From: Coraliomargarita sp.
GTDB taxonomy: Bacteria; Verrucomicrobiota; Verrucomicrobiia; Opitutales; Coraliomargaritaceae
Direction of reading: 5' to 3'
Assembly: GCA_965216325.1 (NCBI GenBank)
Contig: OZ244160.1
Span: forward strand, 2,048,001-2,112,000
Length of the DNA: 64,000 nt
Part shown: positions 20,927 through 24,603 of the stretch, piece after piece
Layout: every line of letters begins with the position of its first letter
Position numbering within the stretch: the first letter of the stretch is position 1
Program-made: the position numbers and the translations under genes
The notes under the pieces: model-generated
Database searches by the model: none
Seen by the model: only the letters and a program-made list of their open reading frames with translations
Told to the model about the DNA's origin: nothing

Positions 20927-22132
20927 GTGCACTGCCTCATTCTAGGCAAGCTCTGGCCTGAGCCCTCTTCGACGGCGGCTGGGCGCCGCACTTTGGATAT
21001 TATCCGCACGCTGCGTGTTGCTGGCTGGGATGTTAGTTTTGCATCCGCAGCAACAGCGACGGAGCATACTATTGATCTCGGTCGATTAGGGGTCGAGGTG
21101 CGCGCAGTTGAGGTGAATGACTCCGTATTTGATTCATGGATACAAGAGCTGAATCCTGATGTTGTCGTGTTTGATCGATTTATGGTCGAGGAGCAATTCG
21201 GATGGCGTGTTGAGAAAGCCTGTCCTCAAACCTTGCGCGTCCTTGATACCAGCGATCTGCATTGTTTGCGCCATGCGCGCCAGCAGCAAGTGCTCAAGGG
21301 GGAAGCCTTTGATCTCTATAACGAGGTGGCTTTGCGCGAAATTGCATCGATTCATCGTTGTGATCTGTCATTGATGATTTCGGAGTATGAGGTGGATATA
21401 CTGCATCGCGAGTTTGCGATCCCGCAGGGGCAAGTGGCCTATTGGCCGTTTAGTGTAGAATTGTCCGATGCCCCGCAGCCTGCTTTTGATGCACGCCAAC
21501 ACTTTGTGATGATTGGTAGCTTCATGCATCCGCCGAATTTGGATGCAGCTCGTTGGTGTAAGCAGGCAATCTGGCCCTTAATTCGTGAGCAGCTTCCGGG
21601 GGCTGAGCTGCATTGTTATGGATCTTATGGCGAAAAGTATGCAGGCGAGCTGCATGCGCCAAAGGACGGTTTTTATTTTAAAGGCCGTGCTAAGGATGCG
21701 TTGGAAACCTTAGGGCAGTATCGCGTGAACCTTGCCCCCTTACGATTTGGTGCGGGGCTCAAGGGGAAGGTCTTCGATGGCTTCGAGGCTGGCACGCCGA
21801 CGGTGACAACGCAAGTCGGTGCGGAGGGAATTGCTCGTGAGGATGTTTGGGGATGTGTGCTGTCTGATGAGCCTGAGCAATTCTCTGCTGCAGCGGTAAG
21901 GCTCTATCGGGAGGTCGATTTTTGGCAGCAGGTTCAACAAAACGGGCGTTCGATTCTTAAGGAGCGCTTTGGCGCTGCTACGTGGCTGACGGAATTGCCT
22001 GCAATTCTAGAGGTTGGATTGTCCAGCCGTGCGGTGAATCGTCGACAGCATTTTGTGGGTCGAATGTTACGCCACCATCATCATCGCAGCACTGAGTTTA
22101 TGAGTCGTTGGATTGAGGCAAAGAATCGTTGA
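20927..22132 (+). CDS. GT-B (GT4-like) glycosyltransferase
   Basis: WPEPSSTAAG, FDRFMVEEQFGWR and APLRFGAGLKGK motifs. Confidence 0.85.
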   Translation: MHCLILGKLWPEPSSTAAGRRTLDIIRTLRVAGWDVSFASAATATEHTIDLGRLGVEVRAVEVNDSVFDSWIQELNPDVVVFDRFMVEEQFGWRVEKACPQTLRVLDTSDLHCLRHARQQQVLKGEAFDLYNEVALREIASIHRCDLSLMISEYEVDILHREFAIPQGQVAYWPFSVELSDAPQPAFDARQHFVMIGSFMHPPNLDAARWCKQAIWPLIREQLPGAELHCYGSYGEKYAGELHAPKDGFYFKGRAKDALETLGQYRVNLAPLRFGAGLKGKVFDGFEAGTPTVTTQVGAEGIAREDVWGCVLSDEPEQFSAAAVRLYREVDFWQQVQQNGRSILKERFGAATWLTELPAILEVGLSSRAVNRRQHFVGRMLRHHHHRSTEFMSRWIEAKNR

Positions 22133-22134
22133 TT

Positions 22135-22239
22135 GTAGGGGCGTTGCTTGCGACGCCCGCCGCGTTGGAGCAGCTTTACTGTCTGCGGGCTTCGCCATTC
22201 GGCCATAAGCTCATGGTCGAAGGCAAGCAAAGCCCCTGC
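22135..22239. repeat. REP/REPIN-like element, copy B (flank of the IS110 insertion)
   Basis: gtaggggcgttgcttgc...gcaagcaaagcccctgc inverted ends; shares ~52 bp with 7965-8016. Confidence 0.85.
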
Positions 22240-22259
22240 TATGTTCGTTTCTGTCAAGA

Positions 22260-22573
22260 GTGTAGAAGCGTGTGAGTGTTTTTACATAAGATAAGTGGTT
22301 TGTTTTGATTGCAATCGTCTTTGAGCGTCCACCGCGCATGGCCTCGGAGTTTCGATGATCCGGGATAACCTGCTATCCGTTTTTCTGAGTGTTTCTCAGA
22401 AGAGCACACTATGACCTATCCATTGGGTCATTCAAAAGCTTGGTGGCGAAGTGGCCTATTCTACAAAATCGTTGTGTTGGCAACAGGGGCTTGGTCAGAC
22501 TCACTCCGCACAAAGGAAAACTGCAAAAGAACGTTAAAATCAGAGGGTGAAGGCCTTTAGCGTTGGTTCGGAC
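22260..22573 (-). ncRNA. Putative bridge/seek RNA of the IS110 element (limits approximate)
   Basis: Non-coding, contains hairpins, a 9-nt match to the target flank and 7+6-nt matches to the donor junction. Confidence 0.6.
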
Positions 22574-23662
22574 TTATGGGTTTTGTCTGCTTATCAGTCC
22601 GAAGTCTTCGAGACTGCATTGGCCAGTGCGTATGCGCCACCAGTCCACGGCGAACTGCCGGGCGATGGCCACGGCAATTTTCTTGCGGGTCGCCTTACTG
22701 GTGGTCTCGTCGCTGAGCTTGGCCTGCCATTTACGCACCCCACTGTAGCCGGGATTCCACCGGATCAATAACCAGGCGCACTCTTGTAGCATATGCCGCA
22801 GGCGGGGACTGCCGTGTTTGTTGATCGAGCCCTGGAAACGCCGATTTGCACTAGTGTCTTCGCTTGGGCACAGTCCGGTAAAGGAACTGACCGCCTTGCG
22901 GTTGTTGAATCGCTTCCAGTTGCAGACCTCACGTTCGATCTGTTCATAGAGGACCACCCCCATGCCTTTAGGCAGCACCCGTTCCGGCTCGAGCGCTTCG
23001 ATACGTTCTTCGATGTTGCTGATTAGCTCGCTAAAGTGCAGGCAGTTTAACCGCAGTGGCTCCAGCAGGCTGATCAAAAAATCGTCGAGCTGTTCGAGTA
23101 GCTGCATCCATTTGCGCGGCTTCCACCAGCCGCTGGGTAAGGGTTGATCGTAATACAGTCCCAGACTCTTACCACGCTTGGCCGCACGGCCACGTTCTTT
23201 GACGAAGCTTTCACGCTGCCGGGTTAGGCTGCGGTGACGCTCTTCTTGCTCGCTGGGCACACGCACGACACTGAAGCTGCGGTCATTGCCCCGCAGATAG
23301 CCGTCCAGACTCAAGACCATTTGCAACGCATCACGCGCGTCGGTCTTTACCTTCTTACCATGAGTGTCCCAGTTGATCGGGCGGATTACGTGGTTGTTCA
23401 CGCCCATCGCCTTGAGCTTGCGGTGCAGGCTGTAACCAAAAGGACCGGCCTCGTAGCAACTTTGCAACTGCTCGCACTGAGTGCTCAGCTGCTTAATCCA
23501 TCGAAGGAAGATATCAGGCTTCATGCGCTTCGCGCGTGAAGGGGCGCTGCTATCGATCTTCATGACCACCACGTAGGTGCTCGCATGCACGTCAATGCCA
23601 AGCTTGATTACTGTGCCCAGTGCGTTCTTAGTTGTCCGTGTAGATGATGTGGGGTTTTGCAT
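22574..23662 (-). CDS. IS110 family DEDD recombinase/transposase
   Basis: GIDVH, CYEAG and KTDARDA (DEDD); C-terminal FTGLCPSEDTS...GSINKHG and AIARQ. Confidence 0.95.
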   Translation of the reverse strand: MQNPTSSTRTTKNALGTVIKLGIDVHASTYVVVMKIDSSAPSRAKRMKPDIFLRWIKQLSTQCEQLQSCYEAGPFGYSLHRKLKAMGVNNHVIRPINWDTHGKKVKTDARDALQMVLSLDGYLRGNDRSFSVVRVPSEQEERHRSLTRQRESFVKERGRAAKRGKSLGLYYDQPLPSGWWKPRKWMQLLEQLDDFLISLLEPLRLNCLHFSELISNIEERIEALEPERVLPKGMGVVLYEQIEREVCNWKRFNNRKAVSSFTGLCPSEDTSANRRFQGSINKHGSPRLRHMLQECAWLLIRWNPGYSGVRKWQAKLSDETTSKATRKKIAVAIARQFAVDWWRIRTGQCSLEDFGLISRQNP

Positions 23663-23721
23663 AAGTTTATCATCATAGCACTTCCGTGCTCCTGATAAAC
23701 GCCCATGTCATCTTCGTTTTA

Positions 23722-24603
23722 TTAGCCTAGCACTTGCTGCAGGCGTTCGATGAGCTCGGCGCGGATGGGGCGGGCGGCTTCGGAGAGTTTGCGTTGGCGA
23801 CGCTCGTAGGTGGCGCGGCCTGTGGCGGTTTCGACGGGTATGGCGTCGTAGCCGAGCGAGCTGCAGTCGTAAGCGCTCGCTTGCATGTCGAGTTCGCGTG
23901 CGCGAATGGCCAATTCGAAACTCTTCCACAATAGTTCCGAACCGACCCAAGGCATGCATTGGGCGGCCAGTTTGTAGAGGTCCATGTTGGTGTGTAGGCA
24001 GCCGCACTGTTCGTTGTCGAGGCGGTCGTCTTTGCCGGGCTGGATGCGATTGAAGCGCTTGGCGGATGGTGTAAAGAAGCGGAAGGCGTCGAAGTGGCTG
24101 CAGTTGATCGGGCGGCTTTCGACGAAGGCATTCACTTCTGCTTGGCTGAGGCGCAGGGGCAGCTTTTCGCCGTGACGGATTTCACCGTCGTTATCGCCGC
24201 GATACACCATGGCCCACTCATGCATGCCGAAACATCCGAACTGTGGCGGGCGGGCGTGCACGGCCTTAGAGAGCTTGAGGGCGAAACTCAAACGACGCCG
24301 GTTGCCTGCATCCAGCTTGGATGGATCCAAGACGAGTCGGCCATCCTGGGCCGTATAGAACTTCTCGTTAAACGCGTGTGGCTGGTTACCGAGCTCCAGT
24401 GCGACCCCCAGCCCGGGATGCCATGCCTCCAGTTGGGCGGGTGCGTTGCGGTAGTAAATGAAGAGAAAGTCGTAGATCGGGTGCATCTTGCCCGAGGCGC
24501 GCCGCTTGCGGTAGGGCGCCGTCCATGCTTCTGCTCGTGCCCGATGGGTGTTTGCCCTGTGGCGCCATGCTTCGAGACTTTGGTGTATGTGTGTCGTTGG
24601 CAT
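23722..24603 (-). CDS. Conserved protein (family often labelled 3-methyladenine DNA glycosylase; function unverified)
   Basis: HPIYDFLFIYY, GCFGMHEWAMVY, CSHFDAFRFF and GCLHTNMDLYK motifs. Confidence 0.75.
   Translation of the reverse strand: MPTTHIHQSLEAWRHRANTHRARAEAWTAPYRKRRASGKMHPIYDFLFIYYRNAPAQLEAWHPGLGVALELGNQPHAFNEKFYTAQDGRLVLDPSKLDAGNRRRLSFALKLSKAVHARPPQFGCFGMHEWAMVYRGDNDGEIRHGEKLPLRLSQAEVNAFVESRPINCSHFDAFRFFTPSAKRFNRIQPGKDDRLDNEQCGCLHTNMDLYKLAAQCMPWVGSELLWKSFELAIRARELDMQASAYDCSSLGYDAIPVETATGRATYERRQRKLSEAARPIRAELIERLQQVLG

What the first reader, a model, noticed from the sequence alone, without database searches (positions are those of the whole stretch)
22230..23682. IS110 element whose 3' non-coding end carries readable guides for its own REP target and donor junction
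Seen in sequence: CT occurs at both inferred ends (22239-40 and 23681-82). The flank just outside the CT, AAGCCCCTG (22230-38, end of a REP), recurs as its exact reverse complement CAGGGGCTT at 22484-92 inside the element's ~330-bp non-coding end. The reconstructed circular donor junction (+ strand ...catagcaCTatgttc...) is matched by CACTATG (22407-13) and, on the opposite strand, TGCTAT (22371-76). These two segments flank a hairpin ttctgag/ctcagaa (22383-22401). Established: IS110/IS1111 recombinases use a bridge/seek RNA with target- and donor-binding loops, IS1111-type elements encode it downstream of the gene, and some members target REPs. Inference: this is an RNA-guided, REP-targeting recombination system in a verrucomicrobial host. 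Caveats: the matches are short (6-9 nt), a match to the other target flank is only partial (~22506-22512), and an alternative hairpin at 22411-22431 overlaps one guide.
Basis: partly seen in the sequence, partly recalled or inferred. Interest (0 to 1): 0.88.

Follow-up and report, generated by a model that had tools for sequence, protein, structure and literature searches.

The report
REP-targeting IS110 element with bridge RNA
This is a nine-copy insertion sequence of the IS110 family whose 3' non-coding end encodes a folded guide RNA that matches both its repeat-sequence target and its own ends; it is a clear new example of an already known RNA-guided recombination system.

Summary
The core of the finding holds, but the anatomy needs correcting. 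The element is 1476 bp, window 22238-23713, with its transposase on the minus strand. Nine copies lie in the genome, eight identical to each other and the window's copy differing from them at one base. All nine sit at the CT core of a REP: occupied AAGCCC-CT|element-CT|AC (8 of 9), empty sites AAGCCCCT-AC.

The 9-mer at 22484-92 is real. It is the left target guide of an RNA module of about 200 nt (22314-22518, minus strand) with four covarying helices and two internal loops.
- The target loop carries AAGCCCCU and UUGUAG.

Across about 38 distinct homologous RNAs with more than 20 different targets, the guides track the flanks and ends. The longest cognate match averages 7.8 nt against 4.1 for non-cognate pairs. 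Right-end variants are matched in 6 of 6 variant RNAs.

Expression, protein binding and catalysis are inferred, not shown. This is a new member of a known kind (bridge/seek RNA, IS1111-like layout), of modest interest.

The parts
22183..22237 (+). Target REP unit (long variant of the GGGCTY..RAGCCC hairpin). Left target AAGCCC is 22230-35 and the core CT is 22236-37.
   Evidence: 9 of 9 copies abut AAGCCCCT. The genome holds 98 such hairpins and 34 empty AAGCCCCTAC sites against 9 occupied ones.
22238..23713 (-). The insertion sequence, 1476 bp including one copy of the CT core (equally 22236-23711).
   Evidence: The 9 copies have identical ends, and 8 are fully identical to one another. Empty sites read AAGCCCCT-AC. 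A contig spans 22229-23713 at repeat depth.
22238..22242 (-). Last five bases of the right end (ATAGC in transposase sense), read by the right-end guide.
22241..22250 (-). Right arm of a weak sub-terminal inverted repeat (AAACGAACAT); its partner is 23697-23706.
   Evidence: Read by eye: 8 of 10 complementary. The repeat tool did not report it.
22252..22257 (-). TTGACA, a -35-like hexamer conserved in the right ends of homologs. On a circle it would lie 16-17 nt upstream of TGACAT in the left end (inferred junction promoter; weak -10 in this element).
   Evidence: No promoter was found in the integrated copy.
22314..22518 (-). Bridge/seek RNA module: target loop, donor loop and four helices.
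   Evidence: A covariance model built without this element or its nearest relative hits here at 63.8 bits, E 8e-18. Covariation is shown.
22496..22509 (-). P1 5' arm (pairs with 22446-22458); outer stem of the target loop.
22485..22492 (-). Left target guide, RNA AAGCCC-CU. It pairs with the REP strand that reads AGGGGCTT.
22471..22484 (-). P2 cap hairpin of the target loop (GUUGccaacaCAAC).
22460..22468 (-). Right target guide plus core plus one 'handshake' base, RNA UUUUGU-AG-A. It pairs with + strand CT-ACAA of an empty site.
22446..22458 (-). P1 3' arm.
22438..22445 (-). P3 5' arm (long-range stem; partner 22330-22337).
22426..22431 (-). AUGACC arm that can pair with the left-end guide and has the same sequence as the element's left end ('anti-guide'; role unknown).
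22411..22415 (-). Left-end (donor) guide, RNA GUCAU, complementary to the first five bases of the left end (ATGAC).
22379..22409 (-).
22381..22381 (.). Single-base difference of the window copy (T here, G in the 8 other copies). In the RNA it turns C into A and breaks a P4 base pair that is kept in the 30 other aligned RNAs.
22369..22376 (-). Right-end (donor) guide plus core plus one handshake base, RNA AUAGC-AG-G.
22330..22337 (-). P3 3' arm.
22574..23662 (-). Recombinase gene, 362 aa: DEDD RuvC-like domain plus Tnp domain with the catalytic serine.
23663..23711 (-). Left end, 49 nt. Its first five bases ATGAC are 23707-23711, and the left arm of the weak sub-terminal repeat is 23697-23706.
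23712..23713 (+). Second copy of the CT core.

Best explanation
This is an IS110-family insertion sequence with an IS1111-like layout: a short left end and a long right end that carries the RNA. It inserts in one fixed orientation at the CT core of a REP.

A structured RNA of about 200 nt, transcribed from the 3' non-coding end (minus strand, 22314-22518), has two internal loops. In the target loop, AAGCCC-CU pairs with one strand of the REP left of and across the core. UUGU-AG pairs with the other strand across the core and 2-3 bases to its right. In the donor loop, GUCAU pairs with the first five bases of the element's left end, and AUAGC-AG pairs with the strand complementary to the last five bases of the right end plus the core. 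[quoted passage not shown] The DEDD/serine recombinase (D24, E71, D108, D111, S271) then exchanges strands at the core.

Shown here: the true ends and target; the guide complementarities; their covariation with flanks and ends across homologs; and the covarying RNA helices.

Inferred from the family: that the RNA is made, that it binds the protein, that a circle forms, and the chemistry.
For: Ends and target. All 9 copies share the ends, and empty sites read AAGCCCCT-AC.

Protein. PF01548 and PF02371 both match. The profile aligns S271 with the catalytic serine region of IS621, and the DEDD residues and S271 are invariant in 38 homologs.

RNA. 27 base pairs in 5 helix segments are 90.8% paired against 70.1% in shuffles and 35-52% when slid. 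24 of 27 pairs show compensatory changes, and 0 of 500 shuffles reach the observed score. A model built without this element finds it at E 8e-18, and finds exactly 10 sites in the genome: the 9 copies plus a second IS type.

Guides.
- Left target guide against the right-hand flank, 38 distinct RNAs: the longest shared run averages 7.76 nt for cognate pairs and 4.07 for non-cognate. Runs of 8 nt or more occur in 24 of 38 cognate pairs and 97 of 1406 non-cognate pairs.
- Right target guide: positions -1, -2 and -3 match in 96%, 92% and 65% of 26 RNAs, against 37%, 31% and 31% for non-cognate pairs.
- Left-end guide: the pairs with left-end bases 2 and 3 hold in 26 of 26 RNAs, against 79% and 56% for non-cognate pairs. 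Observed states include ATGAC/GUCAU, AAAAC/GUUUU, TTGAC/GUCAA and AGGAC/GUCCU.
- Right-end guide: all 6 variant RNAs (ATAGG in 4, ATAGT in 1, ATAAC in 1) match their own right ends.

The order of the strand matches and the 3' location fit the published IS1111 seekRNA description (PMC11187229, sections read).
Against: - No RNA data: no RNA run holds the stretch.
- No sigma-70-like promoter was found in the integrated copy.
- The donor-loop guides are short. The 5-mer and 7-mer are individually near chance level (50% and 4% of shuffles).
- The right-end guide and the right end are both nearly invariant, so most of that agreement is co-conservation.
- Left-end positions 1 and 4 show little or no signal (62% vs 52%; 77% vs 75%).
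- 2 of 39 RNAs (L039, L058) mismatch their right end at the last base.
- 7 of 38 cognate target matches are only 4-5 nt.
- The left-end guide can also pair within the RNA.
- The window copy's own right flank (TC) does not match the right target guide, and its RNA carries a helix-breaking base.
- The NCBIfam score is 2.2 bits under its cut-off.
Confidence: 0.88

Rival explanations
1. Only the target half is RNA-guided, as with a short seekRNA. The element's ends would be recognised by the protein through the sub-terminal repeats. The conserved GUCAU and AUAGCAG segments would then be structural or protein-binding parts of the RNA, not DNA guides.
For: - The short 82-nt seekRNA of ISEc11, which carries the target matches, sufficed for movement (PMC11187229, section read).
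- GUCAU can form a hairpin with an upstream arm: 5 bp or more in 16 of 31 RNAs, and covarying.
- Left-end positions 1 and 4 show no clear signal.
- The right-end guide and the right end are nearly invariant (32 of 39 are ATAGC/ATAGC).
Against: - All 6 RNAs with a variant right-end guide have the matching variant right end.
- Left-end bases 2 and 3 pair in 26 of 26 RNAs, including the clade that lacks the internal hairpin (TTAAC/GAUAA, ATAAC/GAUAU).
- The geometry mirrors the target loop and the solved IS621 donor loop (passages read).
Confidence: 0.1
2. The internal AAGCCCCT is a chance match or a captured REP fragment. The REP would be chosen by the protein or by DNA structure, and no RNA would be involved.
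For: Each match is short, and no expression data exist.
Against: - The 9-mer is expected in 0.2% of shuffles.
- The segment lies in an internal loop between covarying helices.
- In homologs with more than 20 other targets the same loop carries the matching sequence.
Confidence: 0.02

Closest known systems
IS621 of E. coli (IS110 group) and its bridge RNA
   Same: - DEDD/serine recombinase.
- CT core, and a REP target.
- RNA with a target loop and a donor loop. The left target guide of 6 bases plus core compares with 7 plus core in IS621, and the right target guide of core plus 2-3 bases compares with core plus 2 in IS621. One base after the core behaves like a handshake base.
(IS621 details come from passages of PMC11208158 and PMC11208160 read.)
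   Different: - The RNA lies downstream of the gene in the right end, not in the left end.
- The gene and RNA run antisense to the strand on which the core reads CT.
- The donor left-end guide is only about 5 nt and does not cover the core.
- The protein is very distant: profile E 0.025 to 8wt6, and no hit with the single sequence.
IS1111-group elements with seekRNA or bridge RNA (ISEc11, ISKpn4, ISPa11)
   Same: - The long non-coding region and the RNA lie downstream of the transposase.
- The match to the top strand lies 5' of the match to the bottom strand, and the two overlap at the insertion point.
- Natural retargeting among relatives.
(PMC11187229, sections read.) That ISPa11 targets REPs is recalled, not checked here.
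   Different: - The sub-terminal inverted repeat is weak here (8 of 10).
- The protein is 362 aa, against 330-350 aa reported.
- The motif reads GLCPSEDTSA, not GL-P----S(T)G.
- All plasmid-borne IS110-family matches are below 32% identity.
- Grouping with IS1111 transposases by phylogeny was not tested.
ISPpu9 / ISPpu10 of Pseudomonas putida KT2440
   Same: IS110-family elements inserted in REPs; ISPpu9 has a small-RNA gene downstream of the transposase (abstract of PMC12288879).
   Different: [quoted passage not shown] Here the RNA covaries with target and ends, and no solo copy exists in the genome: 10 model hits, all inside elements.

Membership tests
IS110 family RNA-guided (bridge) recombinase element | N-terminal DEDD RuvC-like domain (PF01548) and C-terminal Tnp domain (PF02371) | tested here: met
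   PF01548 scores 29.2 bits (cut-off 29) and PF02371 scores 52.9 bits (cut-off 21.3).
IS110 family RNA-guided (bridge) recombinase element | Catalytic D-E-D-D and serine residues | tested here: met
   D24, E71, D108, D111 and S271 are invariant in 38 homologs. The profile alignment places S271 opposite the serine of ..YESG.. in IS621, and KTDarDA opposite KTDTVDA. The identity of the IS621 catalytic residues comes from passages read.
IS110 family RNA-guided (bridge) recombinase element | NCBIfam NF033542 (IS110 family RNA-guided transposase) above its curated cut-off | tested here: inconclusive
   137.8 bits against a cut-off of 140, E 4.7e-40, covering 21-344 of the protein.
IS110 family RNA-guided (bridge) recombinase element | Site- and orientation-specific insertion at a conserved core dinucleotide, with no terminal inverted repeats and no target duplication beyond the core | tested here: met
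   All 9 copies lie in the same orientation at AAGCCC-CT, and empty sites read AAGCCCCT-AC.
IS110 family RNA-guided (bridge) recombinase element | Non-coding RNA with internal loops whose strands covary with the target flanks and the element ends | tested here: met
IS110 family RNA-guided (bridge) recombinase element | The RNA is expressed, binds the recombinase and is needed for recombination | not testable with these tools
   No RNA run holds the stretch; there is no biochemistry.
IS1111 subgroup | The longer non-coding region and the RNA lie downstream of the transposase gene | tested here: met
   The 3' non-coding region is 336 nt and the 5' region is 51 nt; the RNA module is at 22314-22518.
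IS1111 subgroup | Sub-terminal inverted repeats of 7-17 bp | tested here: inconclusive
   ATGGGCGTTT against AAACGAACAT is 8 of 10 by eye, and the repeat tool did not report it. Some relatives have a perfect 7-mer, ATGGGGT/ACCCCAT.
IS1111 subgroup | The top-strand match lies 5' of the bottom-strand match in the RNA | tested here: met
   In transposase sense, AAGCCCCU (complementary to the top strand) precedes UUGUAG (same sense as the top strand).
IS1111 subgroup | Transposase motif GL-P----S(T)G and clustering with IS1111 transposases | tested here: inconclusive
   The motif reads GLCPSEDTSA, with S-A rather than S-G. No phylogeny with ISfinder references could be made; the best plasmid-borne relatives are below 32% identical.
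Any Rfam RNA family | A match to a curated covariance model | tested here: not met
   No match at E up to 1 in 21500-24500 on either strand.

The most novel reading that the evidence does not exclude
The guide for the element's left end (GGUCAU, 22411-16) is held in a hairpin by an upstream arm (AUGACC, 22426-31) that copies the left end's own sequence. This arm covaries with the guide in about half of the family. It could act as a built-in decoy that gates donor binding, for instance to control the direction or timing of recombination. No such layer appears in the sections and passages I read of the bridge and seek RNA papers. Together with proteins below 32% identical to plasmid-borne IS110 members, this would mark a distinct clade centred on Verrucomicrobiota, with more than 20 naturally reprogrammed targets.
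Probability: 0.15. Interest if true: 0.55.

Novelty: new member of a known kind. Interest (0 to 1): 0.3.

Why it matters
The element is a clean, self-consistent natural example of bridge/seek RNA guidance outside the well-studied Proteobacteria. It has nine near-identical copies, 34 unused perfect target sites in the same genome, and a family of relatives in which all four guide segments can be read against their DNA partners. That makes it a ready test system for how IS1111-like elements read their own ends, which the seekRNA paper left open, and a possible source of a compact 362-aa programmable recombinase. It does not change what is known about the mechanism.

Tried and rejected
- Rfam scan of 21500-24500: nothing at E up to 1.
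- RNA evidence: no RNA holder is listed among the 24 runs. Laying contigs of 4 runs showed no joint, neither an empty site nor a circle, and only gave repeat depth and loose ends.
- Promoter scan of the integrated copy: 0 sigma-70-like sites.
- PDB search with the single protein: no hit at E up to 0.01. Only the profile reached ISCro4 and IS621, weakly.
- Empty site in same-genus genomes: G001 and G002 have the two flanking genes but neither the REP nor the element between them, so they do not fix the ends.
- Naming the subgroup through annotated plasmid elements: all 704 matching records are below 60% identity, the 25 listed are at 26-31%, and all are annotated only as 'IS110 family transposase' or 'transposase'.
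- My first prediction for the left junction of the L070-type relatives was wrong: 0 of 24 loci. It was replaced after reading the real left ends.
- A closing stem for the donor loop (GGAUA/UAUCC in this element) is not kept across the family. I judged this by eye and do not claim the stem.
- Whole-region fold: the z-score is +1.2, so the thermodynamic fold alone gives no support.
- Earlier notes of this scan: nothing on this element.
- Literature: none of the 15 papers listed combines the IS110 / bridge RNA / seekRNA terms with Verrucomicrobia or Coraliomargarita. This was one search only and is no proof of absence.

Full report
**What is there.** The window holds a 362-aa open reading frame on the minus strand (22574-23662). 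It carries both Pfam domains of IS110-family recombinases, PF01548 and PF02371. It scores 137.8 bits on the NCBIfam model 'IS110 family RNA-guided transposase', 2.2 bits under that model's cut-off. A profile of 38 homologs reaches the solved ISCro4 and IS621 recombinases only weakly (E 0.0029 and 0.025). Even so, it aligns S271 with the serine of the IS621 ..YESG.. segment and KTDarDA with KTDTVDA. D24, E71, D108, D111 and S271 are invariant in those 38 homologs. The single sequence finds no solved structure.

**True ends.** The genome holds nine copies. Lining them up shows that identity runs on the + strand from just after ..AAGCCCCT to ..CCCATGTCATCT. After that, eight copies continue AC(A/G) and the window copy continues TCGT. 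Empty copies of the same REP read ..AAGCAAAGCCCCT-AC... The element is therefore 22238-23713, 1476 bp counting one CT, with the shared core CT at 22236-37 and 23712-13.
- A collapsed-repeat contig in one run covers 22229-23713 at 277.6 depth against flanks of 28-35.
- A loose end at 22237 continues ACAAATCG, which is an empty REP.
- The genome has 98 REP hairpins of this type, 34 empty AAGCCCCTAC sites and 9 occupied ones.

**The RNA.** The 3' non-coding region is 336 nt and the 5' one is 51 nt. In 78 loci from other genomes that encode relatives of the protein, most titled as Verrucomicrobiota bins, the region downstream of the gene keeps a common architecture. This includes a 13-mer that is near-invariant.

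An alignment of 31 diverse RNAs gives four helices: P1, P2, a long-range P3, and P4. Scored as 27 pairs in 5 helix segments:
- 90.8% of cells are paired, against 70.1% in shuffles and 35-52% when the partners are slid.
- 24 of 27 pairs have compensatory changes.
- 0 of 500 shuffles reach the observed covariation score.

A covariance model built without the window's element and without its closest relative finds the window at 22314-22518 (minus strand; 63.8 bits, E 8e-18). In the whole genome it finds exactly ten sites: the nine copies and one copy of a second IS110-type element. Rfam has no matching family. The free-energy fold of the whole region is unremarkable (z = +1.2), so the support is comparative, not thermodynamic.

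**Guides.** In transposase sense the insertion reads tL-AG-[left end .. right end]-AG-tR, where tL and tR are the target's left and right flanks.

P1 and P2 enclose an internal loop.
- Its 5' strand is AAGCCC-CU (22485-92), complementary to AG+tR.
- Its 3' strand is UUUUGU-AG-A (22460-68), which equals tL+AG plus the first base of the left end.

P4 is flanked by two further segments.
- GUCAU (22411-15) is complementary to the first five bases of the left end.
- AUAGC-AG-G (22369-76) equals the last five bases of the right end, plus AG, plus the first base of tR.

**Do the guides track the DNA?** I located ends in the homolog loci by their conserved terminal motifs and by comparing copies. Before counting I dropped 4 loci whose loops were misaligned or missing: L049, L076, L087 and L103.
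- Left target guide, 38 distinct RNAs with a right junction. The longest run shared between the loop and the reverse complement of AG+tR averages 7.76 nt for cognate pairs and 4.07 for non-cognate. Runs of 8 nt or more occur in 24 of 38 cognate pairs and 97 of 1406 non-cognate pairs. Seven cognate pairs reach only 4-5 nt. More than 20 different tR sequences are involved.
- Right target guide, 26 distinct RNAs with a left junction. The bases at -1, -2 and -3 match in 96%, 92% and 65%, against 37%, 31% and 31% for non-cognate pairs. Farther out there is no signal.
- Left-end guide. The pairs with left-end bases 2 and 3 hold in 26 of 26 RNAs, against 79% and 56% for non-cognate pairs. Base 1 holds in 62% against 52%, and base 4 in 77% against 75%. 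The states are ATGAC/GUCAU, AAAAC/GUUUU, TTGAC/GUCAA, TTAAC/GAUAA and ATAAC/GAUAU. L087, one of the four dropped loci, adds AGGAC/GUCCU.
- Right-end guide. 32 of 39 RNAs are ATAGC/ATAGC. All variant RNAs match their own right ends: ATAGG in 4, ATAGT in 1, and ATAAC in the dropped locus L087. Two elements (L039, L058) mismatch at the last base.
- The 'handshake' bases rest on few informative cases (2 T:T pairs and 2 mismatches among 26), so the evidence for them is weak.

**Comparison with the known systems.**
- The loop geometry is that of the IS621 bridge RNA: 6+2 and 2+2-3 bases for the target, and one guide for each strand (passages read).
- The RNA, however, lies in the right end, and the gene runs antisense to the strand on which the core reads CT. 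This matches the published statement that the order of the strand matches is reversed in IS1111-type seekRNAs (PMC11187229, sections 6, 9, 10, 13 and 14, read).
- Features of the IS1111 subgroup are only partly met. The RNA is downstream. The sub-terminal repeat is weak, 8 of 10 by eye, and was not reported by the repeat tool. The motif is GLCPSEDTSA. The protein is 362 aa.
- All plasmid-borne relatives are distant, and no reference phylogeny could be made.

**Weak points.** There is no RNA evidence and no promoter in the integrated copy. A conserved TTGACA in the right end (22252-57) would lie 16-17 nt from TGACAT of the left end on a circle. That fits the junction promoters described for the family, but the -10 is poor here; this is an inference. 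The left-end guide can also pair with an upstream arm that has the left end's own sequence: 5 bp or more in 16 of 31 RNAs, mean 4.3 bp against 3.5 in shuffles, and covarying. This leaves room for the rival reading in which the donor half is structural. It also underlies the most novel reading, a decoy arm.

**The window's copy itself.** This copy is the odd one of the nine. It alone has T at 22381, which makes the RNA C into A and breaks a P4 pair kept in the 30 other aligned RNAs. Its model score is 63.8 bits against 72.3 for the others. It alone also has the flank CT-TC instead of CT-AC. Contigs of three runs carry G at 22381.

**Verdict.** The finding is real and its main inference is right. 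The ends, the donor junction and two of the four proposed guide matches were wrong. This is a new member of the known bridge/seek RNA systems, and the interest is modest.

Noticed in passing
window 22381 and 23714-23715: The window's copy is the only one of nine with T at 22381. In the RNA this is a C-to-A change that breaks a P4 base pair kept in 30 other RNAs, and the model score drops from 72.3 to 63.8 bits. It is also the only copy whose flank after the core is TC instead of AC. It may be an off-target insertion or a decaying copy.
   Followed up: partly
own genome, G000:C1:2769548-2770885 (locus L035), outside the window: A second IS110-type element is present. Its protein is 46% identical, and it has its own RNA module (99.6 bits). 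Its target loop reads CCCCUC-CU and its right flank reads GAGGGG, so two related RNA-guided elements with different targets share one genome.
   Followed up: partly
window 22411-22431, and alignment A2 columns 113-142: An arm upstream of the left-end guide has the same sequence as the element's left end and can pair with the guide (AUGACC/GGUCAU). It reaches 5 bp or more in 16 of 31 RNAs and covaries (GUGAC/GUCAC, GAAAC/GUUUC, AAGAU/AUCUU, GUGCUU/AAGCAU). It is absent in the clade whose left ends start TTAAC or ATAAC.
   Followed up: partly
window 22136-22237: Two REP units lie head to head upstream of the element. The left one (22136-22162) is an inverted variant with compensating changes in its stem. 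The occupied one carries an insert of about 30 nt in its loop, and the same long variant recurs elsewhere in the genome at 90-95% identity.
   Followed up: no
loci L070, L078, L080, L083, L094 (left flanks): In another verrucomicrobial bin the related element sits among short repeats of AAAGGGGTCA, which is itself the full target of that element's RNA. Repeat-targeting therefore recurs in the family with a different repeat.
   Followed up: no
loci L039 and L058, right ends: These two elements end in ATAGA-AG while their RNAs read AUAGC-AG. They are the only 2 of 39 mismatches at this position.
   Followed up: no
loci L115 and L116 (same-genus genomes G001, G002): The intergenic region between the glycosyltransferase gene and the convergent gene holds neither the REPs nor the element in these two relatives, so both are recent arrivals at this site.
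   Followed up: partly
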